From an uncultured Methanosarcinales archaeon (lineage in GTDB: Archaea > Nanobdellota > Nanobdellia > Woesearchaeales > CAYVYK01), in the NCBI GenBank assembly GCA_964455675.1, contig CAYVYK010000007.1, forward strand, positions 40,166 through 104,165: a stretch of 64,000 nt of DNA. Reading direction: 5' to 3'. The notes beneath the pieces are model-generated. The model saw only the letters and a list, made by a program, of their open reading frames with translations, had not been told where the DNA came from and did no database searches. Below, piece by piece: positions 27,815-51,354 of this stretch. Every line of letters begins with the position of its first letter. Positions within the stretch are counted from its first letter, which is position 1. The translations under genes were made by a program, and so were the position numbers.

Positions 27815-30058
27815 TCAGAATCCAGAAATGTTACCCGTCTGGCTTAAAATTGTTCCGGCAATCAGATTGAACAGTATCATGATCACCCCGGTCGTAATCA
27901 CATAAAAGACCGTACAACGGATCAAGTTTTTTCCTAGCAAATAGCGCTCGCTGATGCGGTCAGGACCGTTATCAATCCCATTCATCAGGATAGTGAGAAT
28001 GTACACGATCTGCACAACATAAATTCCGACAACAATCTGAAAGAAAAATGTGGGAATACCATCACCACCACCAATAAGAGAAGCACTCGCAAACCCCCCA
28101 AAACCTGCGGACGAACCAGAATCGCCGCCAATCTGGCTTATCATCTTTGCCTGATTTGACAAGAGCCCAAGGATGTTTGTGATCATAGACGTGATACCAA
28201 CTACAACTCCAGAGATGATTGGCGTGAGGAAATTAATTTGCGACTGCATGGAGCTCACAACATCCTCAAGAATGTCCTTTAAACGCTCATTCACAAGGTG
28301 GATCTCCTTGATGTAGCGAGAGACATTCATCACAGCCTGCGCAGCAATCGCTGGACCTTTCTTCACACCCTGGACGAGCACCTCCATGGAGCTCTCAATT
28401 AGGTTTGAAGGGAAATACGCAAGCGCACCATTCCTTGAACTGAAGATCGCCTCATGGACACTAAGACCCAGGCGGCGGATATTATTGTCCACAATCGCGA
28501 AGAATCTTCCCGATTCCGTGCCCTGCATGACATCTGATACTCGCCCAAAGGCAATCTCCGCAGGTATGCGGTCACCAAGACGGTTACCGAGCTGGAATAG
28601 GGCGGAGGCAAACTCCTGCTCAAGTTTCTTCGTTTTCTCACGAATATCGATCACGTTCTCCGAACGCATCTTGTAGTACACACCTAAACCCAAGCCAAAC
28701 GCCAGTGTCACGCATAAGCTTAAAAGAGCAGCACCGAGGCCAAACGGACCAACCTTATCGTCACGAGTGGTCTCCTCAAGACCTGCACGGTATTCCAGCA
28801 GGCAGAACTGCTGCTTGCACGCACTGATCTTCTCAAACGCCTGAGCGTTTGCCGCAGAAAATGTGATACCAAAATCAAAATCAGGAGCAACAAGATGGAT
28901 CAGCAAAGGAGAGAGACCAAGCAAGAGCAATATGACGAATACAGCCCAACCAACAGAGGCAGGTGACATCGTCCTCTTCTTCCCAAAAAAGTTGAACTTG
29001 TACTCGCGCTCTTTTACGACAGCAGAGCTCTCCGAGATATCCGTGCTGCCATACCCTGTTGGCCTTGTCGCAAGAATATTCTTTCCCATGTAGAACACAA
29101 CGAGTGGAAGCAGAACGTTATAGAGCATGGCAATATGATACCAGCGAATGCCACCCATAAAACTCACCATGAGCGGAAGCATGACAAGACCAAGGATTGG
29201 CAGTACGACTCCAAGCATGTTCAAGGTGGAAATCGGGGACTTGAGATTATGCGCAAAATGCAGCATCTTCTCGTATGTTTCCTCAAGAATTATCTCAAGA
29301 GACTTGTCAAGCAACGCAAGCCTTCGCTCCTCAGCAGACTCATAGAGCGATGAAATAATGAGATGGAATGACTCTAAAAACTCTGGATTGTCCTTGCGCC
29401 ACGTCTCAAGATAGGTATCAATCGCGTCCTTTACCGTATCATACTTTTGCGCCTCAACGTCCCAGAGAATCTTACGAAAGTCAAGACTTAAGGGCGGAGC
29501 CATGTGTTGAGAGGCAAACTCAATCGCGAGCTCAAGGTTTGAGGTGTGCCGCATATACGTGACAAGATAAAAAATGCAAACAACCATCTGATTGGAAGCC
29601 TTCATCCGCCAACCATTCGCCATATACTCAGGAAGCTTTTGCAGAGGGTAGAGTAGGATTACCGCGAAAAGAAGCGCAAACATGCTAAAGAAGAGCGTCG
29701 TCTTATCTAGGATAAGGGCCGGAATCAAGTATCCGAGAAGCCCTCCGAAGAACGCGATCATGATCGGCGCAAGATACGCAAAACTTATCGCGCCAGAGGG
29801 AGTGATGTCGAGATGACAAATATTGATATTCTCCTGCAATCGCTCCGCCTGCTTTGGATCTGGCTTAATCCCGGCGATCTTCTCGCTCCATGCGCAAAGC
29901 TTCTCATAGATGGAGAGATTCTTTGGCATGAACTCCCGCTTGAAAATCTGATACTCAGAACTGTACACCGGCCTAACCGTCTCCTTCTCACCCGAAAGGT
30001 CCTTCTTTAGCTGAGACTTATACTTTCGAGCAATCTCCTCATACGATGCGTTTGCCAT
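27815..30058 (-). CDS. FlaJ/TadC/PilC-like polytopic membrane platform protein (enlarged)
   Basis: 747 aa. Alternating cytoplasmic helical domains and TM clusters. Immediately downstream of (2-nt gap) the secretion ATPase. Confidence 0.55.
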   Translation of the reverse strand: MANASYEEIARKYKSQLKKDLSGEKETVRPVYSSEYQIFKREFMPKNLSIYEKLCAWSEKIAGIKPDPKQAERLQENINICHLDITPSGAISFAYLAPIMIAFFGGLLGYLIPALILDKTTLFFSMFALLFAVILLYPLQKLPEYMANGWRMKASNQMVVCIFYLVTYMRHTSNLELAIEFASQHMAPPLSLDFRKILWDVEAQKYDTVKDAIDTYLETWRKDNPEFLESFHLIISSLYESAEERRLALLDKSLEIILEETYEKMLHFAHNLKSPISTLNMLGVVLPILGLVMLPLMVSFMGGIRWYHIAMLYNVLLPLVVFYMGKNILATRPTGYGSTDISESSAVVKEREYKFNFFGKKRTMSPASVGWAVFVILLLLGLSPLLIHLVAPDFDFGITFSAANAQAFEKISACKQQFCLLEYRAGLEETTRDDKVGPFGLGAALLSLCVTLAFGLGLGVYYKMRSENVIDIREKTKKLEQEFASALFQLGNRLGDRIPAEIAFGRVSDVMQGTESGRFFAIVDNNIRRLGLSVHEAIFSSRNGALAYFPSNLIESSMEVLVQGVKKGPAIAAQAVMNVSRYIKEIHLVNERLKDILEDVVSSMQSQINFLTPIISGVVVGITSMITNILGLLSNQAKMISQIGGDSGSSAGFGGFASASLIGGGDGIPTFFFQIVVGIYVVQIVYILTILMNGIDNGPDRISERYLLGKNLIRCTVFYVITTGVIMILFNLIAGTILSQTGNISGF

Positions 30059-30060
30059 AT

Positions 30061-32343
30061 CTATTGTGACTCAGTCATCCGAATCTTCTTAACCTGGCGC
30101 GAAAACCAAGAGTCCCACTCTTCATAGATGCGACGGGAGTCAAGAGCGCCAACCTCCTCCCTCACTTGGTCCGAGATGCGGTGGAACTGATCATTTGCCT
30201 GCACGATAAACGCGGCCTCCATTAACTCAGGCATGTTCGTTGAATCTGCAACTTCCACTATCCGCTGCTTCATGTTCGCGCGAAGCATGATATTATCCCA
30301 CACCGCATCCCACTTCCCTGCCCATTCCCGAACGTTACCCGCGATCGACTTGAGGATGTCACTTTCGCCCTGGATGAAATCCTTCGTAGGCTCAAGCTTG
30401 TCAATCAGGGGATTGTACTTCATAAGGTCACCAAAGCCACCCTCACGAAGAGGATCATCCACCCAGAACTTTCGCACCTCGGTAACCTGCGTGACCCGAC
30501 GGAAACGATGCATGCCATCGGCACTCTTGATCGGATTTGCGACAATGATAATATCAGTCGCCTTGAAACTCGTGCGGGGAACCTTAAGATCATTCACAAC
30601 ACGATCGAATACACCATAGGGCGAATCACCGTGGATCGTACCCGCAACAACGTTCGCAAGCGCGCCAACACGCATCGCTTCATAGAGAGCAGTAGCCTCT
30701 TTGCTGCGAACCTCGCCAACGATAAGGCAAGAATCACCAAGGCGCAAGGTCGTGCGAATCCCGGTCTCGGCGTCAACCTCAGACGTTGCAGCACCGATAG
30801 CGGAACTCACCTTCATGGGCTGAATGTTATAGCCGAGCGCGCGCATCGAGCCAACAGGAAGCTCAAGCGTGTCCTCAATCGTGATGATACGATACTTGCG
30901 CATAATCTCAATCAAGAGCGCGCTCAATAAAGAGCTCTTACCCGCAGAGCGAGTACCTGCAACAAGCATCGTCCTTGAGCCGTCAATAAGGAAACTCATC
31001 AGCCCTGCGGAAAGTGGGGAGATCATTCCCTGCTTGATGAACAAAGGAAGCGTCCAAGGACGGTCACGATGACGCCTGAAAGCATACGCTAGACCTGAGG
31101 GGTTGAGCGGGGGAGAGATGACTGCGATACGCGCCTTTGATCCAGGAAGCTCAAGTTCAGTGTCAAGAATGGGATTTGCCTCATCCAAGGGGCGGCCAGA
31201 GATCAAACGCAGCTTTGTCGCCCATGAATCGGACTCGTTTGGCGTCGGATAAATGTTGGTGCGACAATCCTCAAAATCCTGATGAACGATAAATATGGGA
31301 ATCTGGCCCATGGGAGAATTAATCGTAATATCCTGAACCTTTTCGTCCTGTAGTAGTACCTCAACAAGCCCAAAACCAATCGTGTACCGTACAAGAATCT
31401 GCGTCAACTCATCCCAATCCTTTTCCTTTAGATGCACGCCCTTGAAGTCAGATAGCTCGCCAAGAAGGTCACGACCAACATTTGAGAACACCTGACGCAT
31501 ACGTTCAGGATCGATAAATTCGGCTCGCTTTGGCTTATGATCGGCAAGGATGTTTCGTGCCATATCAAGAAGCTCATACTTATCTTCACTTAAGCGAAAC
31601 TCTGGAGGCATCATGTGATAGAGGTACTGTACCGTCTCTGGAATACTGAAGATGGTCACTTCAGTCGAACCAACCTCATAGCTCTCAAGCTCCTCACCGT
31701 CAGATGGATAGTTCGCCATGAGCTTTGTGTACATGAAGTCAGGCTTAATCGTCGGCGCAAACAATTTCCGATAGATCTCGCGATCCCCGATGTGATAGTC
31801 AGAGAGATACGGCTTAGCCATAATGACAAGCTTTGTCTTGTCCAGCATGAGAAGAATGTAATTCAGCAGTTTCACCCAACGCTCCAAATGCTCCTTTCGC
31901 GATTTTTGCTCCTCGACCTCATAGTTGATCTTCACATGACGGTAGATCCGCTTGAGCTCGACGTACGCAGAAATCGGATCTCCCTTCAACCTACTGAACA
32001 CGATGTGCTGCAGCTGAGTGTATGTGGAGCTATCCTTTGATAGCCCCCGCATCTGGAATGAGAGAAGCCGCTGCCTCACAATATTTGCGTAGATACGCGC
32101 GATCTCAGCGACCATCTGCGTCTGATCATAATCATACTCAAAGTCTCGCTTCTGAGCAAACACGATTTTTGTCGCGGCACCAGCCTCCGCGAGAATCTCC
32201 ACCGTCTTTGACATACATAAGGAGTCGTCCTCAAGCGATGGAGTCTTCGTGTACGCCTCAAGGTCGATGCGAAGAATGATCTCCTGCCCTTCGCGGACCA
32301 CTTCATACTCAAAAGGCTTCTTACTTGACGTGGTCCCTGCCAT
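30061..32343 (-). CDS. type II/IV secretion-system ATPase (FlaI/TadA/VirB11/GspE family), enlarged N-terminal region
   Basis: 760 aa. Walker A LVAGTRSAGKSSLLSAL at about aa 450, Asp box, Walker B IIVGEVR, His-box-like region. Confidence 0.85.
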   Translation of the reverse strand: MAGTTSSKKPFEYEVVREGQEIILRIDLEAYTKTPSLEDDSLCMSKTVEILAEAGAATKIVFAQKRDFEYDYDQTQMVAEIARIYANIVRQRLLSFQMRGLSKDSSTYTQLQHIVFSRLKGDPISAYVELKRIYRHVKINYEVEEQKSRKEHLERWVKLLNYILLMLDKTKLVIMAKPYLSDYHIGDREIYRKLFAPTIKPDFMYTKLMANYPSDGEELESYEVGSTEVTIFSIPETVQYLYHMMPPEFRLSEDKYELLDMARNILADHKPKRAEFIDPERMRQVFSNVGRDLLGELSDFKGVHLKEKDWDELTQILVRYTIGFGLVEVLLQDEKVQDITINSPMGQIPIFIVHQDFEDCRTNIYPTPNESDSWATKLRLISGRPLDEANPILDTELELPGSKARIAVISPPLNPSGLAYAFRRHRDRPWTLPLFIKQGMISPLSAGLMSFLIDGSRTMLVAGTRSAGKSSLLSALLIEIMRKYRIITIEDTLELPVGSMRALGYNIQPMKVSSAIGAATSEVDAETGIRTTLRLGDSCLIVGEVRSKEATALYEAMRVGALANVVAGTIHGDSPYGVFDRVVNDLKVPRTSFKATDIIIVANPIKSADGMHRFRRVTQVTEVRKFWVDDPLREGGFGDLMKYNPLIDKLEPTKDFIQGESDILKSIAGNVREWAGKWDAVWDNIMLRANMKQRIVEVADSTNMPELMEAAFIVQANDQFHRISDQVREEVGALDSRRIYEEWDSWFSRQVKKIRMTESQ

Positions 32344-33471: not shown

Positions 33472-35124
33472 CTAGCTGATCACAATCTCTGGAGGCAGAT
33501 TATTGCTATCCTCCGCTGTTGGCTCCACCGTAGGAGCGGGCGTCACAACCGGGGTTACCGAAGGTGCTTGACCAGCTGGGGCCTCTTCTGCCAAGAGAGT
33601 GTCCAGAATCAGCTCAAATTCTGCCTTCTCCTTGCCGAGGTCGTCCTCCTGCTCATAACCTGTGCCAACGCGCACATACCTGCAACCGAAGATGAATGTC
33701 GGGATTGATCCATCGGGATTGTATTTCTGGTACACTGCCATTTCCGCATCAGGCACAGTTCCTTCTTGACCAGTCACCAATTCTTTCCCGGTATCAACCT
33801 CCCAATGGTATGCTGTAATCAAATCACGGTCTGCGTAGTCCTTGAGAACCGCGTCAACTGTGTCCTTTATCCACTGGCAATGCGGGCACCAGCTTGTCGT
33901 AAACACACGCGCAATTGGCTTACCCTCTGCATCACGGCAGATCGGATCGCTATTCATCATGAATGTCAGATCACCGACGGGAGCCGACTCCACAACAGAG
34001 GGTGTTGGCGTCGCAACCATCGATTGCGAGAAGACAATCTTTGCTGTGGATCTCAATTCAGAGATGTAATCATCGATCGCCTGGCGCTGCCCCGCAATCG
34101 CAAGTACGCGCTCAGAAGGATCTGAGATGTCGGTCAGGAGCTTCTGCTCTGCCTCTAGGTGGCTTGAGACTTTGATGATGTGAAAACCAAATTGGGTCTG
34201 TACAACATCAGATACCTGACCTTCCTGTAGAGCAAACGCAGCATTCTCAAACTCTGGAACCATCTGACCTCGCACGAAATAGCCAAGGTCACCAGCAGTC
34301 TCTTTCGTAGCATCCATGTTATACTGAGATGCCAAAGCTTCAAAGCTTGTGCCCGATTTCAACTGCTGCAAGAGATCAGCGGCAATGGTCTCATTTCGCA
34401 CGTATATATGGCTTGCCCGGATACGTTCAGGAAGCTCAACAGGCTTTACCTTAAAGACCGTCTCATTAATCAGGATTGCAAGCCTATTCGTGTCCTGGTA
34501 AAACGTAATAAAATCTGTCCTAGATATGTTCCTGCTCGAGAGCTCCATCTCAATCTGCGAGAACGGAATCGGGGAAGCATTGAACAGACGGCTCACAAAC
34601 GCCTCAGCGTCCGCGTAACTGTAGTCAACACCCTGCTTTTCCGCCTCCTCTGACAGAAGCTTTTGCACCACAAGGTATTCCGACAAAAATTGTGATTTTG
34701 GCAGCATATCCTTCTGGGAATCCGGAATACCCGACAGGAAGAAATAAAGTTCATATTGCTTGTTCAATTCCTCCTCTGTTATCGGCTGACCATTCACTGT
34801 CGCTGCAATACCAGCTTTCAGGTCACCAACGTCTGATCCTGGTGGTTCGGCCGTTTGAGGAGTGAGCAACCTTGGAAATACAACCATGACAAGTACTGCC
34901 ACGACAATCAATACTGCAACAAGAATAGTGATAATAATCCAAGCGGGAGTCTTTTTCTCATGCTGATGGTGGGAGTGGTTCTTCTTTACCTCAGCATCCT
35001 TTGATCCGTTATGCTTGTGACCCTCATGATGCTTGAAAGACGCACTTTCCTTACGATCGTCCAGCGGCATGTCATCATTATCCTCATCCATCTCTTCAGT
35101 TTCTGTAGGATCCTTTTCATTCAT
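33472..35124 (-). CDS. membrane-anchored fusion of PpiC/parvulin PPIase domain and thioredoxin-like CxxC domain, with His-rich cytoplasmic N-terminus
   Basis: Start likely ATG 35124 (MNEKDPTE), not track 35244. N-terminal HHEGHKHNGS...NHSHHQHEKK, one TM helix, then parvulin core SHIYVRNE...GDLGYFVRGQMVPEFENAAF...GFHIIKV. C-terminal WCPHCQ thioredoxin motif. Confidence 0.7.
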   Translation of the reverse strand: MNEKDPTETEEMDEDNDDMPLDDRKESASFKHHEGHKHNGSKDAEVKKNHSHHQHEKKTPAWIIITILVAVLIVVAVLVMVVFPRLLTPQTAEPPGSDVGDLKAGIAATVNGQPITEEELNKQYELYFFLSGIPDSQKDMLPKSQFLSEYLVVQKLLSEEAEKQGVDYSYADAEAFVSRLFNASPIPFSQIEMELSSRNISRTDFITFYQDTNRLAILINETVFKVKPVELPERIRASHIYVRNETIAADLLQQLKSGTSFEALASQYNMDATKETAGDLGYFVRGQMVPEFENAAFALQEGQVSDVVQTQFGFHIIKVSSHLEAEQKLLTDISDPSERVLAIAGQRQAIDDYISELRSTAKIVFSQSMVATPTPSVVESAPVGDLTFMMNSDPICRDAEGKPIARVFTTSWCPHCQWIKDTVDAVLKDYADRDLITAYHWEVDTGKELVTGQEGTVPDAEMAVYQKYNPDGSIPTFIFGCRYVRVGTGYEQEDDLGKEKAEFELILDTLLAEEAPAGQAPSVTPVVTPAPTVEPTAEDSNNLPPEIVIS

Positions 35125-35214
35125 GAATAATCCCCCCTTGTGATACCCCCGTGGAGTCCTTCCACGATTAATAAACTTTGTGCATTTTTCCCACCGAGAG
35201 AGATTACCGATAAG

Positions 35215-35222
35215 TATAAATA
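35215..35222 (+). promoter_or_regulatory. TATA box (tataaata) 23 nt upstream of ATG 35245
   Basis: Read directly. Confidence 0.45.
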
Positions 35223-35244
35223 GAAAGCAACCGGCCTTTCTCAT

Positions 35245-36570
35245 ATGTATGAGATTGTTGTGGGGCGGAGCGATAGCGATAAAAAACAGTACGGAATGGC
35301 CGGCACGATACTTCTAGGTAAACATTATGTCAAGATGGGCCAGACAACATCACTCTCAAACGAAGTCTACATGGATGTAACGAGAAGCCATATTGTCTTT
35401 GTCTGCGGAAAACGCGGCGGGGGAAAGAGCTACACCATGGGAGTGATTGCAGAAGGCATGTCAAACCTCCCTGACAGCATCTCCCACAACATTGCCATCG
35501 TCATGCTTGACACGATGGGAATCTACTGGACAATGAAATTCCCGAACATGCGGGATGAAGAACTCCTTAAAGAGTGGGGGCTCAAACCCCAAGCCCTTGG
35601 CATCAACATATATACACCGGCAGGATACTACTCGATCTACAAAAAGAAGGGCATTCCAACCGACAAACCATTCTCGATCATACCATCAGAACTCTCGCCG
35701 ATGGAGTGGATGATGACATTCAATGTTGACATATCGACACCCCTCGGTGTTGCTATAGAGAAAGTTGTCATGAAACTCAAGGATGAGCGCGAAAAGTTCT
35801 CCATCAAGGATATCATCATGGAACTGCGCAAAGATGAGGAGATCGATGCGGCAACAAAGCTATCCGCAATCAACCGATTTAAAAGTGCGGAGCGATGGGG
35901 GCTATTCTCAGATGAAGGAACACCACTAGCCGACCTCGTGCGCGGAGGCCAGGTCACAGTACTTGATGTCAGCTGCTATGCAACAATACCTGGCACTGAA
36001 GGTATTAAGGCACTCGTCATCGGGCTCGTCGCACAAAAACTATTCATCCAGCGCATGATAGCGCGAAAGAACGAAGAATTCCAACAAATCCATCAATCCA
36101 TGAACTTCCTCTCTGAGGACGCTGACAGCACGAAAGAAATACCTCTCGTCTGGCTAATCATCGATGAGGCACACGAGTTCCTACCAAGGGAAGGCAAGAA
36201 CGCGTCAACTGACCCACTTATCACCATACTGCGGGAAGGTCGACAGCCAGGAATATCACTCATATTAGCCACACAGCAACCTGCAAAAATCCACACCGAT
36301 GTTATGACCCAGAGCGACATCGTCATCAGCCACAGGCTCACAGCAAAAGTTGACACGGACAGTCTTGGGCTTCTCATGCAAAGCTACATGCGCGAAGGCC
36401 TTGACACTCAGCTGTCAAATCTTCCAAGCTCCAGCGGATCGGCGCTCATATTTGACGACAACAATGAGCGAGTGTACCCCATGCGGATCAGACCAAGATT
36501 CACGTGGCACGGAGGATCAGCACCAACAGCGATCCCAGAGAAGAAAGAGATTTTCGAAAACCAAATCTAG
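35245..36570 (+). CDS. HerA-like (DUF87) P-loop ATPase, orphan (no NurA/Mre11/Rad50 nearby)
   Basis: 441 aa. N-terminal HAS-barrel-like region, Walker A VCGKRGGGKSYTMG, Walker B LIIDEAHEFLP (DEAH), LILATQQPAKI...SHRLTAKVD matching the HerA/FtsK C-terminal motifs. Confidence 0.7.
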   Translation: MYEIVVGRSDSDKKQYGMAGTILLGKHYVKMGQTTSLSNEVYMDVTRSHIVFVCGKRGGGKSYTMGVIAEGMSNLPDSISHNIAIVMLDTMGIYWTMKFPNMRDEELLKEWGLKPQALGINIYTPAGYYSIYKKKGIPTDKPFSIIPSELSPMEWMMTFNVDISTPLGVAIEKVVMKLKDEREKFSIKDIIMELRKDEEIDAATKLSAINRFKSAERWGLFSDEGTPLADLVRGGQVTVLDVSCYATIPGTEGIKALVIGLVAQKLFIQRMIARKNEEFQQIHQSMNFLSEDADSTKEIPLVWLIIDEAHEFLPREGKNASTDPLITILREGRQPGISLILATQQPAKIHTDVMTQSDIVISHRLTAKVDTDSLGLLMQSYMREGLDTQLSNLPSSSGSALIFDDNNERVYPMRIRPRFTWHGGSAPTAIPEKKEIFENQI

Positions 36571-36579
36571 AATGATCAT

Positions 36580-38037
36580 ATGACAAAGACATTCAGCCCC
36601 CGAACGGTCTACGCGCTCGTATTCCTGAGCCATTTTACCATGATTACGCTCGAGATCGCAGGATTTCGGCTGCTTGGCCACACGTTCGGCGTCTCACTCT
36701 ACTCGTGGGGCGCCATGATCGGGATTATCATGGTCGCGATGGGCATTGGAAGCCTCCTTGGGGGGTGGCTTGCAGACCGGAACAATGGCAGAGAATGGCT
36801 TGCAACACTTAGCCTCCTATCGGGAATTCTCCTCTCCTTTACCGTGATCGGCCATGACTATATCCTCGCTGTGGTCTCAAACCTAGCGACTATCGAGGGA
36901 GTGCTCTTATCCAGCCTCATTTTATTCTTCCCTCCAGTCGTACCGCTCGCGATGATTCCACCGCTCGTGATCAAACGACAAGCAAAGAGCGCACAACTTG
37001 GCTACAGCGCGGGCAGCGTATGGAGCCTTGCAACATGCGGCGATCTCTTTGGCATCCTCATCTCGGTATTATACCTCATCCCACACTTTGGAAGCCGCGC
37101 AGTGCTATATCTCTGCTTTGTCATCATCCTCGCATTTGGCGTTGTGGGCATGATGAAATCACACAAGGCGTACATCATCGCGCTTCTGCTCCTCCTCCTT
37201 CCACTTATCTTCACAACACCATCACTTCCGGGGATCGTCTACGAGAATGAATCGTTTTACAATTACATCTATGTGCAGAATGTCAACGGATATCTCCATC
37301 TCAAACTTAACCAAGCAGACCTCGTGCACTCAAGGCTGCCAACTCCTGCAACAGAATACATGGCAGGTGGATACACGGACCATGTACTCGTCAGCAGGTA
37401 TTACCATAACAGACCAAGCAATGTTCTGTTCCTCGGATCTGGAGCAGGCAATATGATCATCCAGTGGCAGCATTACTTCCCGGACGACCGGATCACTGGT
37501 GTGGAAATCGATCCAAAAGTCGTGCACGTTGCGCGGTCGATCTTCAACGTAACGGAGAATGAGAAAACCATCATGGTGGTTGATGATGGGAGGCCATTCC
37601 TCCATCGCTCGAATGAGGTTTACGACATTATCATCATTGACGTCTATCAAGGCAGCGCGTATGCCCCATTCTACATGATGACCAAGGAATTCTTCGCAGA
37701 TGTCTCGCGGCATCTCACGTCTGACGGCGTCCTCGTCATCAACGTCTTTGACTTGGGCGAAGGGGAACTTGCTGACGCAGTCGCAAACAGCGTTCAGCCA
37801 TCATTTGCATCAGTCCACATCGTGCAGGCAGGTAACCGGATCCTCTTTGCGACAAAACTACCCTCAGAACCACAAGACATTGGGGAATCAATACCGCCCG
37901 ATTATCCGATCGACACCAATTACGCGCAGATGTATACATTCTCGGCGAGCCCGTCCATTCCCACATTCACGGATGACGACTCCAACATTGAAGCGTTGAC
38001 GTACCGAATGCTCAAGAAGTACCGCAATGCCAGGTAG
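36580..38037 (+). CDS. spermidine synthase-like (aminopropyltransferase fold) protein fused to N-terminal 7-8 TM domain
   Basis: 485 aa. C-terminal VLFLGSGAGNM...GVEIDPKVV...IIIDVY Rossmann-type methyltransferase/PABS motifs after a polytopic N-terminus. Confidence 0.75.
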   Translation: MTKTFSPRTVYALVFLSHFTMITLEIAGFRLLGHTFGVSLYSWGAMIGIIMVAMGIGSLLGGWLADRNNGREWLATLSLLSGILLSFTVIGHDYILAVVSNLATIEGVLLSSLILFFPPVVPLAMIPPLVIKRQAKSAQLGYSAGSVWSLATCGDLFGILISVLYLIPHFGSRAVLYLCFVIILAFGVVGMMKSHKAYIIALLLLLLPLIFTTPSLPGIVYENESFYNYIYVQNVNGYLHLKLNQADLVHSRLPTPATEYMAGGYTDHVLVSRYYHNRPSNVLFLGSGAGNMIIQWQHYFPDDRITGVEIDPKVVHVARSIFNVTENEKTIMVVDDGRPFLHRSNEVYDIIIIDVYQGSAYAPFYMMTKEFFADVSRHLTSDGVLVINVFDLGEGELADAVANSVQPSFASVHIVQAGNRILFATKLPSEPQDIGESIPPDYPIDTNYAQMYTFSASPSIPTFTDDDSNIEALTYRMLKKYRNAR

Positions 38038-39233: not shown

Positions 39234-40841
39234 ATGGGGGATGAATTTTCTTTAGAGGAACAGGAACTTCTCAAACCGTTCGTGAGCAATATTGACAGTC
39301 CCATATTTGTGCTTCGAAATCTTCCTGAAGTCATCAAGGGAGCGCTTTTTTCAAGATACAGCAGAAGCACGAAAGGCCTTCGCAGACTGCTGCTTGATGA
39401 ATTCATCCAGGGAACAGAAAGCGGATTTAACGCACGAGCAACGGATACGGAAGACCTCCTTGATATCCAGAGAGCGCAAGCATTCTATGACAGAATTCTC
39501 GATGGATACGGCGACGACTCTATTGGAGAACTTGGGGGAGCACACTTGGCGCTCGAAAACGTGAGCATCCTTGCCACCAAGAACCTGGAAAATCCACGCA
39601 TCGGAGGAAGCCCCCTTGAGAAATCAACAAGATATGTCTATTTCGACCAGCAAGTCCATGGGGACTATCTGTACTACAAGGAACCAAGAATCATGGATTC
39701 AAGATTTGCTGACGACTATGTCCGCATCAACCGGCTCCTCTTTAGCACGTACAGCAGACTCATCCCTGACATGATGAAATTCCTTGAAACAACATATCCA
39801 AAAGACGCCAATATCCCGGAGAGCGCATACAGGTTCACGCTCCGCGCAAAAGCATGCGATGCACTGCGCGCGCTCCTACCGGCCTCAACGCTCACCAATA
39901 TGGGAATCTTCGGAAACGGAAGGTTCTTTGAGTCGCTGATCGTCCAGATGGAATGCAATGAGCTGACAGAGATGAGGAACATCGCAACAGACATGCGCCA
40001 AGAACTCGGAAAGGTCATACCCTCATTCATCAGAAGATCTGACCCCCAGCATATGTTTTTCGAGCCATTCCAGCGGTTCATCGGGCAAACACGAGAAGAT
40101 GTACGCGACCTTTCAAGAGAGATCACAAGCACTGAACAATCACGGCCAGCAGATGAAGTCAGACTCCTCCACTTTGATACGGATGCAGAAGAGCGCGTCC
40201 TTATGGCAATCATCTATCCACACTGCACGCTTGACCGAAGCCACTTAAAAAAGGTAATTGCACGACTGACACCAATCAAGCGGCAGGAGATCATCGACGC
40301 ATACTGCAGACAGCGCACCAACAGACGGCACAAGCCAGGACGCGCTTTCGAGAACGCAGTCTACAGTTTCGACCTTCAGGCGGATTATGGAGTGTACCGT
40401 GACCTTCACAGGCACCGGATGCTCACCCAGGAAAGACAGGAACTTGGAGTCCAGCACGGGTACATCATTCCTCCAGAAATAATCGCTGCCGGAATGGAAA
40501 AAGATTTTGTCCACTGCATGGATGAAGCTGCACACGTATACCAGAAGATCTATGAACAATTCCCTCGAGAAGCGCAATACGTCGTGCCGCTCGCATACAA
40601 GATCAGGTGGTATGTCACGCTCAACCTTCGGGAACTCTACTGGCTGTGCGAACTTCGTACTGTGCCGCAAGGACATCCCAACTACCGGAGAGTCGTGCAG
40701 AACATGTTCAAGCAGGTCCAGAGCGTTCATCCGAACCTTGTGAAAAACATGACATACGTCGATATGAATGATTATTCGCTAGGCCGGCTGAAATCTGAAA
40801 TCGAGAAAGAACAGCGCAAGATGGACCTACAACACCAGTAA
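39234..40841 (+). CDS. thyX: flavin-dependent thymidylate synthase (ThyX)-like protein, double-length (tandem-domain) form
   Basis: 535 aa. N-terminal GALFSRYSRS (ThyX R-x-x-Y-S-like). C-terminal-half YRDLHRHRMLTQERQ matches the ThyX RHR motif. Length about twice a canonical ThyX. Confidence 0.5.
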   Translation: MGDEFSLEEQELLKPFVSNIDSPIFVLRNLPEVIKGALFSRYSRSTKGLRRLLLDEFIQGTESGFNARATDTEDLLDIQRAQAFYDRILDGYGDDSIGELGGAHLALENVSILATKNLENPRIGGSPLEKSTRYVYFDQQVHGDYLYYKEPRIMDSRFADDYVRINRLLFSTYSRLIPDMMKFLETTYPKDANIPESAYRFTLRAKACDALRALLPASTLTNMGIFGNGRFFESLIVQMECNELTEMRNIATDMRQELGKVIPSFIRRSDPQHMFFEPFQRFIGQTREDVRDLSREITSTEQSRPADEVRLLHFDTDAEERVLMAIIYPHCTLDRSHLKKVIARLTPIKRQEIIDAYCRQRTNRRHKPGRAFENAVYSFDLQADYGVYRDLHRHRMLTQERQELGVQHGYIIPPEIIAAGMEKDFVHCMDEAAHVYQKIYEQFPREAQYVVPLAYKIRWYVTLNLRELYWLCELRTVPQGHPNYRRVVQNMFKQVQSVHPNLVKNMTYVDMNDYSLGRLKSEIEKEQRKMDLQHQ

Positions 40842-45848: not shown

Positions 45849-47123
45849 GTGTTCCGAGGAAGACGAGGCCAGGAAGGAACCAGTGGAAAGACAGCCAGCC
45901 TCATCGCCATCATACTCGCGTGTATTATCCTCTACATTCTCTTCCTTCCGCCGGACGAAAGGGAGGAGCTTCTCAAGGAGAACACGACGGATAGTGATGA
46001 TGACGATGACATTAGGTACAAGAGCGAGCAGATACTCCTGCGCGAATACATTGGATCTCTAGAATACTTCAACCAGAGGGTGTGCGACTATGATGACACA
46101 AATAGGTATTGCGAGCATCCCGTTCCGAATATCAATCTGTTTGAGACCAGGTCAGCAATCGAGCTAGGAAAAATGAACGCTGTTTATGTGAAAAGCGGAA
46201 CATTCGAGAAAGAACACAAAACCATGACATTTGCCATCGAGGACCTTGAGAAGACAAGCAACGTCCAACTCAGCTTTGTTGCAGAACAGCGGGAAGGCCG
46301 ACTCGTCATCAAGCTCAACGAAGAGGTAATATTCGAGAATGAGATTGACAAAAGCAATCCAGAACCTATTGCGCTACCGGATGACTTGCTCCAGACCACG
46401 AACAAGCTCGAATTTGCAGTATCAGGAGTTGGAGGAGCCTTCTGGGACACGAACGAATACCTGCTATCCAATCTCAAGGTCATAGGAGAAGTGCAAAACA
46501 ACGACCGCCAAACAGGAACGTACTCATTCTCCATAAATCCAACTGAAAATGAAAACCTCGAGCGTGCATGGCTTGAGTTCTACCCTGTCTGCAATCCACG
46601 AAACGTTGGAGTGCTCTACGGCTATGTGAATGGCAATCGCGTGTTTAGCGCAGTACCAGAGTGCGAAGTACGCAACAAGCAGGAGATCAGGATCGGATAC
46701 CTTGACTCAGGAAGCAACGACATCAGTTTCACGACAGAAAAAGGATCATACCTCATTGAAAAGATACAAGTCCTGACGGAGATTAAGGAAGTAGACAAGG
46801 CAACGTTCTACTTCGAACTAAACTCAACGGAATATGACAATGTACTCGACGGAGAGCGACAGGTCAATATCACATTCTTTTTTGTTCATGACGATGACTA
46901 TGTTGATGATATCGAATTCAAGCTCAACGTGAACGGCCACCTCGCATACATCGACAACAGGTATCTTGAAGGCCGCAGCCGAAACGGAGAGAGGATAACA
47001 CGAGGGTATTACTCACGAATCATCGATGAATGGGTAGAAGAAGGAAACAACTACATCCAAATCGAACCCAAAAGCACACTCGAGATCAAAGAAATGCGAG
47101 TCTCTATCTATGATGTCGATTAA
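45849..47123 (+). CDS. N-terminally membrane-anchored extracellular protein, hypothetical (operon gene 1)
   Basis: 424 aa. GTG start with SD aggtga. TM helix ASLIAIILACIILYILF, then acidic DSDDDDD linker and an about 380-aa extracellular domain. TATA tttatata at 45795-45802. Confidence 0.5.
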   Translation: MFRGRRGQEGTSGKTASLIAIILACIILYILFLPPDEREELLKENTTDSDDDDDIRYKSEQILLREYIGSLEYFNQRVCDYDDTNRYCEHPVPNINLFETRSAIELGKMNAVYVKSGTFEKEHKTMTFAIEDLEKTSNVQLSFVAEQREGRLVIKLNEEVIFENEIDKSNPEPIALPDDLLQTTNKLEFAVSGVGGAFWDTNEYLLSNLKVIGEVQNNDRQTGTYSFSINPTENENLERAWLEFYPVCNPRNVGVLYGYVNGNRVFSAVPECEVRNKQEIRIGYLDSGSNDISFTTEKGSYLIEKIQVLTEIKEVDKATFYFELNSTEYDNVLDGERQVNITFFFVHDDDYVDDIEFKLNVNGHLAYIDNRYLEGRSRNGERITRGYYSRIIDEWVEEGNNYIQIEPKSTLEIKEMRVSIYDVD

Positions 47124-47125
47124 CC

Positions 47126-49108
47126 ATGGCACGGGACAGCAGCGCGATTACGCCAAGACTCAGAAAAGAAGTAGATGAAAGACTTAGCAGAGCTCTTGGC
47201 AGACCAGCCCGTGAGGAAATAAACGTTGAAGTGCAGAGCCCAAAACCAGACCCGCGCGACGATGAATTACGGCGACGAGAAGCAGAAATCGCCAGACGAG
47301 AACAACAAATTCTTGATGAACAACGGAGGGTTCGGGACGACATCCGTGAAAGGGATATCGAAGCCAAGAGAACCCTCGATACGGCAGGCGATGCCCCACC
47401 AAAGAGAGGATTTTTAAGCAGAATTGGAGGCGCAGCAAATTGGACGGGAGGAGCGGCAAAGACCACCCTTCGAACAACCGTGAATGTCGCGCAAGGAACC
47501 ACGCAGGTCCTTTCTAAAAATTACACCGCACTCTTCATCGCGGCAATGCTTATCAACTTTGTCGACGGCCTCATGAACTATGGACGGCCGTACTGGAGAT
47601 TTTCCATGTACCTCCTCCTTGCCGTGCTCAGCTGGGCGTTTGTCATCAGGCATCCAGGGGACAATTTCAAGGGCCATCTCTTCACATTTGGTGAATCGCT
47701 TGTCATGGCAGCAGCAGCGTTCTTCTGGCCCCTCTTCTGGTTCCGGGTTGCAGGGTACACACCAATCGACATAGAAGTATTCCGCATACTCGTCAATATC
47801 TTCCCGTTCTATCTCATCTATATCTTCATGTCAAATGACCCGGATTGCAGAAAAAGCACATTCATCCGGATATTCAAATGGGTCTACTTCATCACAATCA
47901 TCCTCCTTATCGTCTCATTCTTCCCAGCACTCGCGGAAGCACGAACACTCCAAAACATCCCATTCCTCCATCCAGCCGAGAATGCTGATGTGTACGGCAC
48001 ATACTCACGATACATCAGCCTCGTCTCCAACGGATGGAACTGGATCAAGGGGACAACCAAAACAACCATCTCAGATATCGACAAGTTCTGGGAGTTACAG
48101 CAAAAAGCGGCACTTGGAGACCTCTATATAGGTGATGTTGACAATGAAGCTGACAAACCGCTGGGCGTCGTACTCAGGGATGTCAAGATGAGCCAGAAGA
48201 TATACACCACATTTGATGACGTGGAGATCCAAGGCCAAATAGACTCAATCAGCCTTGACAGAGATGTCGCGGTAATCATTGGCTGCATTGCAGACAAAGG
48301 CAGCAAGACGCCGATCGAAGCAGTAAGCTACCCCGCAGGAAAGGAACTCGAACTATCAAGAAGCGAAAGCGCAAGTGTCAACTGCATATTCCCCGCAGGA
48401 ACGCTCCCCAGCGGATCGCACAGACTCGCGATGACAAGCAGATTCGGATTCACAACATCAGCGTACATGCCAGCATACTTCATCGATAAAAACCGGGCAG
48501 ACGCCCTGCGCGAGGAAGGAGACAACATCTACAAGCAGCTTCGCATCACAGAACCACTTTCCGACAACAAGATATCAAACGGAGAGCCAAAAACCGTCAC
48601 TACGAGCGGACCTGTCAATATTGGCATGGGAATACCAAACGTGCTTACTGAAGTTGATATCCAGAAAGACCAGAAAGTGTTCAACCTCAAGATCACATTC
48701 ACCAACTCCTGGGGCGGAGGAGAATTCCCTGGAAAGATCAAGAATGTCCGAGAATGGTACATCCAAGTACCAAAGGAAATGGAGATCGCGGCGGACACGA
48801 CAGGAAACACGAAATGTTCGGGCAAGAAATTCATCGCCACAAGATGTCCATCGGGTGATAAGAGATGTGACGATGTGAATTACAAGACCTATAAGCTTGA
48901 CCCAAGTGTCAAACTCACAGAAATCGACTTTCTTGATAGTATTGCATGCACGATCGTCATTCATGGCAACAGCTTCAATGATCTTCTCGGCACAGGACCC
49001 CTCGCCGCAAAGCAGTTCCGCACATGGATGACGTACGATTATGAATACGAGCGCGGCAACCTGAACATCAACATCAAAAAGGAGGAAACAAACGATGCCG
49101 TCACGTAA
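47126..49108 (+). CDS. membrane protein with charged coiled-coil cytoplasmic N-terminus, about 5 TM helices and about 380-aa extracellular domain, hypothetical (operon gene 2)
   Basis: 660 aa. ATG 2 nt after the upstream stop. RRREAEIARREQQILDEQRRVRDDIRERD, then a hydrophobic cluster at aa 170-330. Confidence 0.5.
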   Translation: MARDSSAITPRLRKEVDERLSRALGRPAREEINVEVQSPKPDPRDDELRRREAEIARREQQILDEQRRVRDDIRERDIEAKRTLDTAGDAPPKRGFLSRIGGAANWTGGAAKTTLRTTVNVAQGTTQVLSKNYTALFIAAMLINFVDGLMNYGRPYWRFSMYLLLAVLSWAFVIRHPGDNFKGHLFTFGESLVMAAAAFFWPLFWFRVAGYTPIDIEVFRILVNIFPFYLIYIFMSNDPDCRKSTFIRIFKWVYFITIILLIVSFFPALAEARTLQNIPFLHPAENADVYGTYSRYISLVSNGWNWIKGTTKTTISDIDKFWELQQKAALGDLYIGDVDNEADKPLGVVLRDVKMSQKIYTTFDDVEIQGQIDSISLDRDVAVIIGCIADKGSKTPIEAVSYPAGKELELSRSESASVNCIFPAGTLPSGSHRLAMTSRFGFTTSAYMPAYFIDKNRADALREEGDNIYKQLRITEPLSDNKISNGEPKTVTTSGPVNIGMGIPNVLTEVDIQKDQKVFNLKITFTNSWGGGEFPGKIKNVREWYIQVPKEMEIAADTTGNTKCSGKKFIATRCPSGDKRCDDVNYKTYKLDPSVKLTEIDFLDSIACTIVIHGNSFNDLLGTGPLAAKQFRTWMTYDYEYERGNLNINIKKEETNDAVT

Positions 49109-50195: not shown

Positions 50196-50220
50196 TAACT
50201 TTGAAACGAAGGTGAAAACC

Positions 50221-51219: not shown

Positions 51220-51354
51220 GAATACGGCCTAGAAGACTTGTATTCTCACCAACAAATGGCATGAAGCACGCCTCATTTCCAAAAAGTTTAAATAAGTAGC
51301 CTACTCGGGGGTGAGGTATATCAGTATATATATTCATTGCACGGAGGAATCATC

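What the first reader, a model, noticed from the sequence alone, without database searches (positions are those of the whole stretch)
33472..35124. Membrane-anchored parvulin(PpiC)-thioredoxin fusion with His-rich cytoplasmic N-terminus
One TM helix places a parvulin PPIase domain followed by a thioredoxin-like WCPHCQ domain outside the cell. That would make a combined prolyl-isomerase/thiol-disulfide oxidoreductase foldase. The cytoplasmic side carries a His-rich stretch (HHEGHKHNGS...NHSHHQHEKK) suggestive of metal binding. Together with the extremely Cys-rich 1181-aa surface protein and other Cys-rich secreted proteins in this window, this suggests a dedicated extracytoplasmic oxidative-folding pathway.
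Basis: partly seen in the sequence, partly recalled or inferred. Interest (0 to 1): 0.5.

Follow-up and report, generated by a model that had tools for sequence, protein, structure and literature searches.

The report
Membrane-anchored PrsA-like chaperone fused to thioredoxin
A DPANN archaeon encodes a surface-exposed, membrane-anchored folding helper that joins a PrsA-type chaperone and prolyl isomerase to a DsbA-like (CPHC) thioredoxin domain; the parts are ordinary, but the fusion defines an undescribed, fairly widespread protein family.

Summary
Window 33472-35124 (-) encodes a 550-aa protein.

An outside location is supported by three things: the positive-inside flanks, homology to extracytoplasmic PrsA/SurA, and a second Cys pair (C396/C481). 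That pair is present or lost only together: 96 C/C, 18 neither and 0 mixed in standalone relatives, and 68 versus 2 in fusions.

The Trx domain belongs to a membrane-anchored family seen mainly in CPR bacteria and DPANN archaea. Its CPHC motif is near-invariant, and DsbA is its best structural match, but it lacks DsbA's helical insert.

The fusion is not unique. At least 70 clusters (50% identity) share it, and 30 more lack the parvulin. About 15% have lost CxxC.

The His-rich tail is not conserved, so metal binding is unsupported. No VKOR or DsbB lies in the window. The link to Cys-rich surface proteins is plausible, since extracytoplasmic Cys counts are even, but it is unproven.

Verdict: a new variant of known kinds, of moderate interest.

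The parts
33472..35124 (-). Complete CDS (550 aa + stop) of the membrane-anchored PrsA-like/parvulin-thioredoxin fusion
   Evidence: ORF. The full-length AF2 model has mean pLDDT 82.8.
34945..35124 (-). Cytoplasmic N-terminal tail (res 1-60): an acidic first half, then a K/H-rich juxtamembrane stretch (8 His)
   Evidence: pLDDT is below 50 for residues 1-55. The 15 residues before the TM have 3 K/R and 4 H, against 1 K/R after it. The tail is not conserved in length or His content among 70 homologues.
34879..34944 (-). Single transmembrane helix (res 61-82), a type II signal-anchor
   Evidence: Hydropathy peak of 3.58 at 63-81. The AF2 model has a helix at 61-82. All full-length homologues have a TM-like segment here.
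34453..34836 (-). SurA_N/PrsA-like helical chaperone domain (res 97-224)
   Evidence: Pfam SurA_N_3 scores 28.3 bits against a cut-off of 27.2. Foldseek's best matches are Bacillus PrsA 6vj6 (E 1.5e-13), 4wo7 and SurA 1m5y.
34141..34440 (-). Parvulin (PpiC-type) PPIase domain (res 229-328) with H239, D271, T310 and H315
   Evidence: Rotamase_3 E 1.4e-24. It is 46-48% identical to Bacillus PrsA PPIase fragments, with target-normalised TM 0.90-0.93, and phmmer gives E 2.3e-22 to 6xd8. In 55 fusions the catalytic positions are conserved: H239 in 53, D271 in 41, T/S310 in 55, H315 in 52.
34015..34119 (-). C-terminal return helix of the PrsA-type chaperone module (res 336-370)
   Evidence: AF2 helix at 336-360 plus a short strand and helix, pLDDT about 90. 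It is aligned within the PrsA/SurA structural matches.
33967..34014 (-). Flexible Pro/Thr/Ser-rich linker between the chaperone and Trx modules (res 371-386)
   Evidence: pLDDT is below 50 for residues 374-382. Length varies across the alignment.
33583..33966 (-). Thioredoxin-fold domain (res 387-514) of the CPR/DPANN 'WCPHC' family
33877..33891 (-). Active-site motif W412-C413-P414-H415-C416
   Evidence: Translation checked. CPHC occurs in 115 of 117 standalone relatives and in about 40 of 70 fusions. It sits at the N-terminus of helix 414-432.
33682..33939 (-). Span bounded by C396 (33937-33939) and C481 (33682-33684), an inferred structural disulfide
   Evidence: Both end codons were checked. 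Co-occurrence is 96 C/C, 18 neither and 0 mixed in the standalone family, and 68 C/C against 2 L/G in fusions.
33475..33582 (-). Pro/Thr/Ala/Val-rich C-terminal tail (res 515-550), present only in this protein and P0002
   Evidence: Alignment. pLDDT is below 50 for residues 519-550.
35245..36570 (+). Divergently transcribed DUF87/HerA-like ATPase (441 aa), a conserved neighbour whose functional link is unproven
   Evidence: Pfam DUF87. It lies upstream on the opposite strand in 5 of 5 fusion loci; in P0002 two small ORFs intervene. It is 60-65% identical across loci where the fusion is only 33% identical.

Best explanation
The gene encodes an extracytoplasmic, membrane-tethered bifunctional foldase of a DPANN (Nanoarchaeota/Woesearchaeota-like) archaeon. 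A signal-anchor helix holds the protein at the outer face of the cytoplasmic membrane, N-in and C-out.

A PrsA/SurA-type chaperone module sits there: a helical N-domain plus return helix, with an inserted, catalytically competent Par10/PrsA-type parvulin. It is placed to capture unfolded polypeptides leaving the Sec translocon and to isomerise their prolyl bonds. A flexible linker of about 16 residues carries a compact thioredoxin-fold domain. Its WCPHC active site has the DsbA/MdbA dipeptide, and its cis-Pro loop is intact. This domain most likely introduces disulfide bonds into the same clients, and perhaps also reshuffles them. The domain is itself stabilised by a structural disulfide, C396-C481.

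Shown here: the domain identities, the folds, the conservation of catalytic residues, the family distribution and the Cys-pair co-variation. Inferred: the topology, the oxidase direction of the redox reaction, the clients (Cys-rich surface proteins) and the re-oxidant, which is unknown. No VKOR or DsbB is nearby.
For: - **Domains:** searches give PrsA as the best sequence and structure match. The parvulin is 46-48% identical to the Bacillus PrsA PPIase.
- **Catalytic parvulin residues:** H239, D271, T310 and H315 are conserved in the family.
- **Active site:** CPHC occurs in 115 of 117 standalone relatives, and the cis-Pro is invariant. From my own knowledge, E. coli DsbA and actinobacterial MdbA use CPHC and thioredoxin uses CGPC.
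- **Outside location:** the K/R/H-rich N-flank against the C-flank; 109 of 114 standalone relatives carry an N-terminal TM; the C396/C481 pair is present or absent only together, with several different replacement pairs (L/G, L/A, I/G, E/G, F/G and others), implying repeated joint loss.
- **Family:** 70 fusion clusters share the same domain order.
- **Exported proteins in the window:** they have even extracytoplasmic Cys counts of 46, 6, 6, 4 and 4.
- **Literature:** a CPR-enriched membrane thiol-disulfide oxidoreductase family has been proposed to fold pilins and is sometimes adjacent to VKOR (PMC6744442).
- **A possible partner exists in relatives:** one Woesearchaeota locus has a VKOR 7 kb from a standalone member of this Trx family.
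Against: - No redox partner (VKOR, DsbB, CcdA/DsbD or MauE-like) is in the 64-kb window or next to any of the five fusion loci.
- The Trx domain does not reach any Pfam or NCBIfam cut-off and lacks DsbA's helical insertion.
- About 11 of 70 fusions have no CxxC at all, and 2 keep a single Cys. So redox chemistry is not essential to the family's function.
- The direction of electron flow cannot be read from sequence.
- From my own knowledge, many DPANN archaea lack quinones and respiratory chains, which makes a classical DsbB/VKOR cycle questionable.
- The topology is predicted, not measured.
Confidence: 0.65

Rival explanations
1. The architecture and location are the same, but the Trx domain works as a reductase or isomerase, like ResA/CcmG/TlpA or DsbC. 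It would keep client cysteines reduced or reshuffle wrong disulfides, and would be fed with electrons from the cytoplasm through a CcdA/DsbD-type protein.
Against: CPHC, the DsbA/MdbA oxidase dipeptide, is near-invariant in the standalone family (115 of 117) and is the commonest motif in fusions. DsbAs are the top structural matches. No CcdA/DsbD-like gene is in the window or in the flanks examined. Most fusions have Val before the cis-Pro, as DsbA does.
Confidence: 0.15
2. The Trx domain is mainly a redox-independent substrate-binding or chaperone domain, comparable to the b/b' domains of PDI. It would extend the client-binding surface of the PrsA-like chaperone, and the CxxC would be dispensable or vestigial.
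For: About 11 of 70 fusion clusters have replaced both active-site Cys (DPHS, DYHS, DSHS, SAHS, STHG, QDAS and others). They still keep the structural Cys pair, the cis-Pro and the rest of the fold. Thirty further clusters keep chaperone + Trx but drop the parvulin. This shows the chaperone-Trx pair is the persistent unit.
Against: In this protein and its closest relative the full WCPHC is intact. It is near-invariant in the standalone family, which argues for selection on redox chemistry.
Confidence: 0.12
3. One reading: the His-rich cytoplasmic tail is a metal-binding or sensing element that couples metal status to extracytoplasmic folding.
For: The tail has 8 His in 62 residues here and 7 in 56 in the closest homologue P0002. 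A few other fusions also have His-rich tails (P0254 10 of 46, P0263 9, P0283 7).
Against: Most of the 70 homologues have 0-2 His in the tail. Tail length ranges from 3 to 157 aa, and the common feature is K/R richness, consistent with the positive-inside rule. The tail is predicted disordered. There is no conserved His motif in the alignment.
Confidence: 0.05
4. Both catalytic domains face the cytoplasm, and the protein is a membrane-tethered cytoplasmic folding or redox factor.
For: The topology was only predicted, with a simple hydropathy and charge calculation.
Against: All structural relatives of the chaperone module (PrsA, SurA, PEB4, HP0175) are extracytoplasmic (own knowledge). The strictly co-varying non-catalytic Cys pair implies a stable disulfide, which is not expected in a reducing cytoplasm. 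The basic and His-rich flank is on the N side.
Confidence: 0.03

Closest known systems
PrsA foldase of Bacillota (B. subtilis, B. anthracis, Listeria; PDB 4wo7, 6vj4, 6vj6, 5htf)
   Same: Both are extracytoplasmic post-translocation chaperones built from a helical N-domain plus a C-terminal return helix, with an inserted Par10-type parvulin. PrsA is the best sequence and structure match, and the parvulin is 46-48% identical.
   Different: PrsA is a lipoprotein with a lipobox Cys, whereas this protein is anchored by an N-terminal TM helix. PrsA has no thioredoxin domain. No NCBIfam PrsA model comes near its cut-off (88 bits against 343). This protein is also archaeal.
PpiD (and SurA) of Gram-negative bacteria
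   Same: PpiD has an N-terminal TM anchor followed by a SurA_N-like chaperone domain with an inserted parvulin. It sits at the Sec translocon (own knowledge). Many database hits of the query are annotated PpiD or SurA.
   Different: From my own knowledge, PpiD's parvulin is catalytically inactive and its C-terminal region is a further chaperone domain, not a thioredoxin. The parvulin here keeps the catalytic residues.
DsbA / MdbA thiol-disulfide oxidases
   Different: This domain has no alpha-helical insertion domain: only a loop of about 16 residues lies between beta2 and alpha2, and the whole domain is 128 aa. It gives no significant Pfam DSBA hit. It has Trx-like W before the first Cys and I-P-T at the cis-Pro. 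No DsbB or VKOR partner was identified here.
Standalone membrane-anchored 'thioredoxin family proteins' found mainly in CPR bacteria and DPANN archaea (e.g. Buchananbacteria P0156, Woesearchaeota L006)
   Same: It is the same domain family, at 43-58% identity over the whole 128 aa for all but one of the hits. WCPHC, the cis-Pro and the extra Cys pair are shared, and so is an N-terminal TM anchor.
   Different: These are proteins of 160-220 aa with no chaperone or PPIase module.
Eukaryotic ER folding assemblies (PDI with cyclophilin B / FKBPs)
   Same: Functionally analogous: disulfide catalysis and prolyl isomerisation are brought together on the same clients. Redox-dead Trx domains are used for binding, as in some family members here (own knowledge).
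   Different: Those are non-covalent complexes of unrelated PPIase families, not a single polypeptide, and there is no evolutionary relationship beyond the Trx fold.

Membership tests
Parvulin / PpiC-type PPIase (Pfam PF00639, PF13616) | HMM match above the gathering score | tested here: met
   Rotamase_3 scores 87.3 bits against a cut-off of 22.5, and Rotamase 76.1 against 21.7.
Parvulin / PpiC-type PPIase (Pfam PF00639, PF13616) | Catalytic dual-His motif plus the Asp/Cys and Thr/Ser positions (Pin1 H59, C113, S154-region, H157) | tested here: met
   H239, D271, T310 and H315 are present and conserved in 55 fusions. The local sequence GDLGYF..GQMVPEFE..TQFGFHII is of the Par10/PrsA type.
Parvulin / PpiC-type PPIase (Pfam PF00639, PF13616) | Measured cis/trans isomerase activity | not testable with these tools
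   This needs a protease-coupled or NMR exchange assay.
PrsA/SurA/PpiD-type chaperones | SurA_N-like helical N-domain completed by a C-terminal helix, with the parvulin inserted between them | tested here: met
   SurA_N_3 scores 28.3 bits against 27.2, which is marginal. The AF2 model has helices at 117-224 and 336-360 around the parvulin. Foldseek matches PrsA 6vj6 at E 1.5e-13 and SurA 1m5y at E 3.5e-12.
PrsA (NCBIfam equivalogs NF002827, NF002846) | Full-length equivalog score and lipoprotein (lipobox) anchoring | tested here: not met
   The score is 88 bits against cut-offs of 343-361, and only the parvulin is matched. The N-terminus is a 60-aa tail plus a TM helix with no lipobox Cys; the four Cys are at 396, 413, 416 and 481.
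Thioredoxin-fold oxidoreductases | beta-alpha-beta ... beta-beta-alpha fold with CxxC at the N-terminus of helix 1 and a cis-Pro loop before beta3 | tested here: met
Thioredoxin-fold oxidoreductases | Pfam or NCBIfam model above its curated cut-off | tested here: not met
   Thioredoxin_2 scores 24.5 against 27, and Thioredoxin 17.0 against 23.5. There is no NCBIfam hit for the isolated domain.
DsbA family (PF01323) | CPHC-type active site | tested here: met
   WCPHC is at 412-416, and CPHC occurs in 115 of 117 relatives.
DsbA family (PF01323) | Alpha-helical domain of about 65 residues inserted into the Trx fold | tested here: not met
   Only a 16-residue loop lies between strand 58-63 and helix 80-89 of the model. 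There is no significant DSBA Pfam hit for this protein.
DsbA family (PF01323) | Re-oxidation by a membrane partner (DsbB or VKOR) encoded in the genome | tested here: inconclusive
   None was found in the 64-kb window by Pfam on membrane proteins, a scan for CxxC or CxC motifs in multi-TM ORFs, and tblastn with a Woesearchaeota VKOR. None was found beside the other fusion loci. The rest of the genome was not available. A VKOR does exist 7 kb from a standalone relative in L024.
TlpA/ResA/CcmG-type extracytoplasmic reductases | Reducing redox potential and dependence on CcdA/DsbD | not testable with these tools
   The redox potential needs measurement. No CcdA/DsbD-like gene was seen in the window.

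The most novel reading that the evidence does not exclude
The chaperone-(parvulin)-Trx proteins could be the main, self-contained oxidative-folding machine of DPANN archaea with reduced genomes: a prokaryotic 'PDI-like' scaffold. In this reading it works without a classical quinone-linked DsbB/VKOR partner and is re-oxidised by oxygen, small-molecule disulfides or host-derived oxidants. It would be required to build the Cys-rich surface proteins that mediate attachment to hosts. Redox-dead family members would act as b'-like client-binding variants. The strictly conserved divergent pairing with a HerA-like ATPase might reflect co-regulation, or even a functional link to the variable cytoplasmic tail.
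Probability: 0.12. Interest if true: 0.7.

Novelty: new variant of a known kind. Interest (0 to 1): 0.4.

Why it matters
Prolyl isomerisation and disulfide formation are the two slow steps in folding exported proteins. In the textbook bacterial and archaeal systems they are handled by separate proteins. Here they are joined in one membrane-tethered polypeptide, in a lineage with minimal genomes and large Cys-rich surface proteins.

At least about 100 sequence clusters share the chaperone-Trx core, yet none of the Pfam or NCBIfam models tested recognises the Trx domain above its cut-off, and no paper in the searched library describes the fusion.

The family offers three things. It is a compact candidate foldase for biotechnology. 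It is a natural experiment on redox-active versus redox-dead Trx domains attached to a chaperone. And it gives a handle on how DPANN archaea and CPR bacteria form extracellular disulfides, possibly without quinone-dependent re-oxidation.

It does not overturn any concept. Each domain behaves as its family would predict.

Tried and rejected
1. **Source genome or a fusion among GTDB representatives.** Only domain-level hits came back and no full-length fusion locus.
2. **Exact look-up of the protein's contig and cluster names.** There was no record and no names. Taxonomy was therefore inferred from RFC small-subunit neighbours.
3. **Word-indexed homology search.** It suggested the fusion was almost unique, with 7 proteins. 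The exhaustive profile search overturned this with 70 clusters.
5. **Search for a redox partner.** I ran Pfam on all sizeable membrane proteins of the window, a scan for CxxC or CxC motifs in multi-TM ORFs, and tblastn with a Woesearchaeota VKOR. Nothing was found. Multi-TM CxxC ORFs near CPR relatives turned out to be prepilin peptidases. The Lit-family membrane protein overlapping one standalone Trx gene has no conserved redox Cys, so I rejected it as a partner.
6. **'Rosetta-stone' adjacency of separate PrsA-like and Trx genes in fetched loci.** None was found.
8. **Literature searches for a parvulin/PrsA-thioredoxin fusion or DPANN oxidative folding.** There was no relevant description. 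Only Meheust et al. 2019 (PMC6744442) covers a CPR thiol-disulfide oxidoreductase family, and I did not verify that it is the same family.
Full report
**1. The observation**

Window 33472-35244 (-) is a 590-aa ORF.
- The longer start would abut the divergent gene that begins at 35245.
- A TATA-like TTTATTAA (35168-35175) and a GGGGGA (35131-35136) precede the 35124 ATG (read by eye).
- An identical 550-aa protein from an NCBI record on a 109.6-kb contig is in the protein collection (P0001).

Pfam finds PpiC-type rotamase models far above threshold (Rotamase_3 E 1.4e-24, residues 245-320). It also finds a SurA-like N-terminal domain just above threshold (SurA_N_3, 28.3 against 27.2 bits). Thioredoxin models fall just below threshold (Thioredoxin_2, 24.5 against 27).

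There is one strongly hydrophobic segment, 63-81. WCPHC is at residues 412-416, nt 33877-33891. The protein has four Cys in all: 396, 413, 416 and 481.

**2. Organism and surroundings**

The window is archaeal. Its RFC small subunit (52305-53267) is 66-72% identical to its nearest relatives. Where those carry an organism name, it is Nanoarchaeota, Woesearchaeota or 'Nanoarchaeia'. So this is a DPANN archaeon.

The neighbours on the fusion's strand are unrelated to protein folding:
- an AP-endonuclease-2/xylose-isomerase-like TIM barrel protein, immediately downstream;
- a T2SSE ATPase plus a polytopic membrane protein.

On the opposite strand lie a DUF87/HerA-like ATPase, a membrane spermine-synthase-like protein and a long ThyX.

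None of the sizeable membrane proteins of the window is VKOR, DsbB, CcdA/DsbD or MauE/DoxX-like. No multi-TM ORF carries a CxxC motif, and only one 105-codon ORF carries a CxC. A Woesearchaeota VKOR finds nothing by tblastn. The fusion is the only parvulin and the only member of this Trx family in the 64 kb.

**3. Anatomy**

A full-length AlphaFold2 model built on 55 homologues has mean pLDDT 82.8. It gives these segments:

| Residues | Element |
|---|---|
| 1-55 | disordered tail |
| 61-82 | TM helix |
| 87-95 | short disordered stalk |
| 97-224 | helical domain |
| 229-328 | parvulin |
| 336-360 | return helix |
| 374-382 | disordered linker |
| 388-513 | Trx domain |
| 519-550 | disordered Pro/Thr-rich tail |

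Foldseek against the PDB returns Bacillus PrsA first (6vj6 E 1.5e-13, then 6vj4 and 4wo7). After that come SurA, PEB4/Cj1289, Listeria and pneumococcal PrsA, and HP0175. By sequence the parvulin is closest to Bacillus PrsA (E 2.3e-22), and the Foldseek alignments to PrsA PPIase fragments are 46-48% identical.

The parvulin catalytic positions are present and conserved among 55 fusions: H239 in 53 of 55, D271 in 41 (with C in 3), T or S at 310 in all 55, and H315 in 52. From my own knowledge of the Pin1, Par10 and PrsA motifs, the sequence GDLGYF..GQMVPEFE..TQFGFHIIK is of the non-phospho-specific Par10/PrsA type.

**4. The thioredoxin domain**

Modelled on 118 sequences, it has pLDDT 95.3 and pTM 0.90. 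The fold is a minimal Trx fold: an N-terminal hairpin, then beta-alpha(CPHC)-beta, a 16-residue loop, then alpha, cis-Pro-beta-beta, alpha.

The domain lacks the DsbA helical insertion and matches no Pfam or NCBIfam model above its cut-off. It is therefore DsbA-like in its active site but is not a DsbA family member.

**5. Family context**

The isolated domain retrieves 117 proteins of mostly 160-220 aa at 37-58% identity. Some are annotated 'thioredoxin family protein' in Buchananbacteria, Dojkabacteria, Parcubacteria and other CPR bacteria. DNA-level hits lie in WWE3, Buchananbacteria, Aenigmatarchaeota, Woesearchaeota and Nanoarchaeota MAGs.

In this standalone set:
- CPHC occurs in 115 of 117 sequences.
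- The cis-Pro is invariant.
- 109 of 114 have an N-terminal TM-like segment.
- The two non-catalytic Cys co-occur perfectly: 96 C/C, 18 with neither, and none with only one.

The 18 double losses use several different residue pairs, which implies repeated joint loss. I read this as a structural disulfide, C396-C481, and hence as evidence for an oxidising, extracytoplasmic location. The charge distribution agrees: the 15 residues before the TM have 3 K/R and 4 H, and the 15 after it have 1 K/R.

**6. How common is the fusion?**

The word-indexed search found only six other full-length fusions, P0002 to P0007. An exhaustive profile search of 1.84 billion cluster representatives changed the picture. 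Among the best 150 hits, local HMMs for the three modules identify two groups:
- 70 clusters with parvulin + Trx, nearly all with the SurA_N-like domain and an upstream TM;
- 30 clusters with SurA_N-like + Trx but no parvulin, for example P0287.

Among the 70 fusions, 68 keep the structural Cys pair and 2 have L/G. About 57 keep CxxC, of which about 40 have CPHC. About 11 have lost both active-site Cys (DPHS, DYHS, SAHS and others), and 2 keep one. The cis-Pro is invariant.

Nearest-neighbour analysis shows that Trx domains of the parvulin-containing and parvulin-less forms intermix. This suggests repeated gain or loss of the parvulin.

An independent analogue also exists. P0010 joins a PrsA-like module to a GILT-like thiol reductase domain.

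The fusion is therefore a real, recurrent architecture. I found no curated model for it and no description in the searched literature.

**7. The His-rich tail**

The tail has 8 His in 62 residues here and 7 in 56 in P0002. Across the family it varies from 3 to 157 aa and is K/R-rich. It usually has 0-2 His, is predicted disordered and has no conserved motif.

The simplest reading is a positively charged signal-anchor flank preceded by an acidic, low-complexity stretch. Metal binding is not supported as a family feature.

**8. Link to Cys-rich surface proteins and a redox partner**

Every predicted exported or anchored protein with Cys in the window has an even number of extracytoplasmic Cys:
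- 46 in the 1181-aa protein;
- 6, 6 and 4 in three tandem lipobox-like paralogues, after their signal-peptide Cys;
- 4 in the protein at 45849-47123, after its TM Cys.

This is the pattern expected when exported Cys are paired. The criterion is that of Dutton et al. 2008, cited from memory. It rests on only five proteins.

In relatives:
- Two standalone Trx genes sit next to a Cys-rich secreted papain-like protease in a WWE3 bacterium.
- One sits next to subtilases.
- One lies 7 kb from a VKOR in a Woesearchaeota MAG.
- Several Buchananbacteria and other Patescibacteria loci have a prepilin peptidase 7-8 kb away.

Meheust et al. 2019 proposed that a CPR-enriched, membrane-anchored thiol-disulfide oxidoreductase family folds pilins. 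That family was adjacent to VKOR in 88 of 750 genomes (PMC6744442). A 2026 preprint adds MauE as another possible re-oxidant class.

None of the five fusion loci shows such a partner nearby. The pathway idea is plausible but not demonstrated, and the re-oxidant remains unknown.

**9. Mechanism proposed**

The signal-anchor places the PrsA-like chaperone next to the translocon exit. The chaperone binds unfolded clients, and the parvulin accelerates Xaa-Pro isomerisation. The tethered CPHC Trx domain, on a flexible linker, oxidises or reshuffles client cysteines.

The domains, folds, conservation and Cys co-variation are shown. The topology, the oxidase direction, the clients and the recycling route are inferred.

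The rivals are a reductase or isomerase role, a mainly redox-independent binding role, a metal-sensing tail and a cytoplasmic orientation. I weigh each in the rival-explanations section, and none is preferred.

**10. Verdict**

Both modules are members of well-known superfamilies and behave as those families predict. What is new is the covalent combination, together with the existence of a sizeable, uncurated chaperone-(parvulin)-Trx family seen so far in DPANN-like contigs.

I rate it a new variant of a known kind, of moderate interest (0.4). Interest would rise if it proved to be a quinone-independent oxidative-folding machine.

A side observation may be worth following. A highly conserved DUF87/HerA-like ATPase lies upstream on the opposite strand in all five fusion loci examined; in four the two genes are directly adjacent, and in P0002 two small ORFs intervene.

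Noticed in passing
window 35245-36570 (+); also L081 6941-8266, L082 6977-9586, L088 2135-3454: A 441-aa DUF87/HerA-like ATPase lies upstream of the fusion gene on the opposite strand in 5 of 5 contexts; in four it is directly adjacent, and in P0002 two small ORFs intervene. It is 60-65% identical across loci where the fusion is only about 33% identical. In L082 it carries an intein (LAGLIDADG). No NurA partner was seen. The best NCBIfam similarities are HerA and CedD/CedB-type translocating ATPases, far below their cut-offs.
   Followed up: partly
window 49095-50195, 50161-51219, 51337-52281 (+): These are three tandem paralogous exported proteins with lipobox-like signal peptides (LSGC, IMAC, MAAC). 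They have no Pfam family apart from a weak CARDB hint. Their Cys spacing is conserved, with an even number (6, 6, 4) of mature-part Cys.
   Followed up: partly
window 55313-58858 (+): This 1181-aa protein has an N-terminal anchor and 46 Cys, all after the anchor and densest at residues 270-650. It has no Pfam hit at E<=0.01. It is a likely large disulfide-rich surface protein of unknown fold.
   Followed up: partly
P0010 (550 aa, from an 80-kb NCBI contig): This is an independent fusion of a TM-anchored PrsA-like chaperone/parvulin with a C-terminal GILT-like (gamma-interferon-inducible thiol reductase) domain in place of the WCPHC Trx domain.
   Followed up: partly
P0287 and 29 other clusters: In these proteins the SurA_N-like chaperone domain is joined to the same Trx domain without any parvulin (350-430 aa). 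Their Trx domains intermix with those of parvulin-containing fusions.
   Followed up: partly
L024 10639-11088 (+) and 3396-3773: This Woesearchaeota MAG contig carries a 149-aa VKOR (PF07884, 56 bits, CIYC) about 7 kb from a standalone member of the Trx family. It shows that at least some DPANN archaea encode a VKOR.
   Followed up: partly
L002 2075-2788, L007 2352-3134, L013 1092-1874, L014 895-1677, L021 2408-3166: In several Buchananbacteria and other Patescibacteria loci, a type IV prepilin peptidase (A24) with two CxxC motifs (CPHC or CPRC, plus CRYC) lies 7-8 kb upstream of the standalone Trx gene. Pfam confirmed A24 for three of the five (L002, L007, L021). This fits the published idea that these oxidoreductases serve pilus biogenesis.
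   Followed up: partly
L001 1935-5618: This WWE3 bacterium has two tandem Trx-family genes next to a Cys-rich secreted papain-like (C1) protease. One Trx copy carries the same Cys-rich C-terminal repeat region as the protease.
   Followed up: no
L084 6001-7135 and L085 1176-2310: The standalone Trx gene overlaps by 20 nt the start of a Lit-family (PF07314, lipoprotein intramolecular transacylase) membrane protein. A similar unannotated 212-aa ORF follows P0124 in a contig that also encodes a TonB-dependent receptor.
   Followed up: partly
window 39234-40841 (+): This ThyX-like protein is 535 aa long. Its best Thy1 match covers only residues 356-501 (Pfam reports two matched stretches), so it has a long uncharacterised N-terminal extension. 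The same long form is syntenic in the P0002 contig (536 aa).
   Followed up: no
window 36580-38037 (+): A spermine/spermidine-synthase-like methyltransferase domain (275-387) is fused to an N-terminal block of about six TM helices. It is conserved next to the DUF87 gene in the P0002 contig.
   Followed up: no
window 27815-32343 (-): A 760-aa T2SSE-family ATPase and a 747-aa polytopic membrane protein with no Pfam hit lie about 1 kb downstream of the fusion. They form a likely pilus or archaellum-type assembly pair.
   Followed up: no
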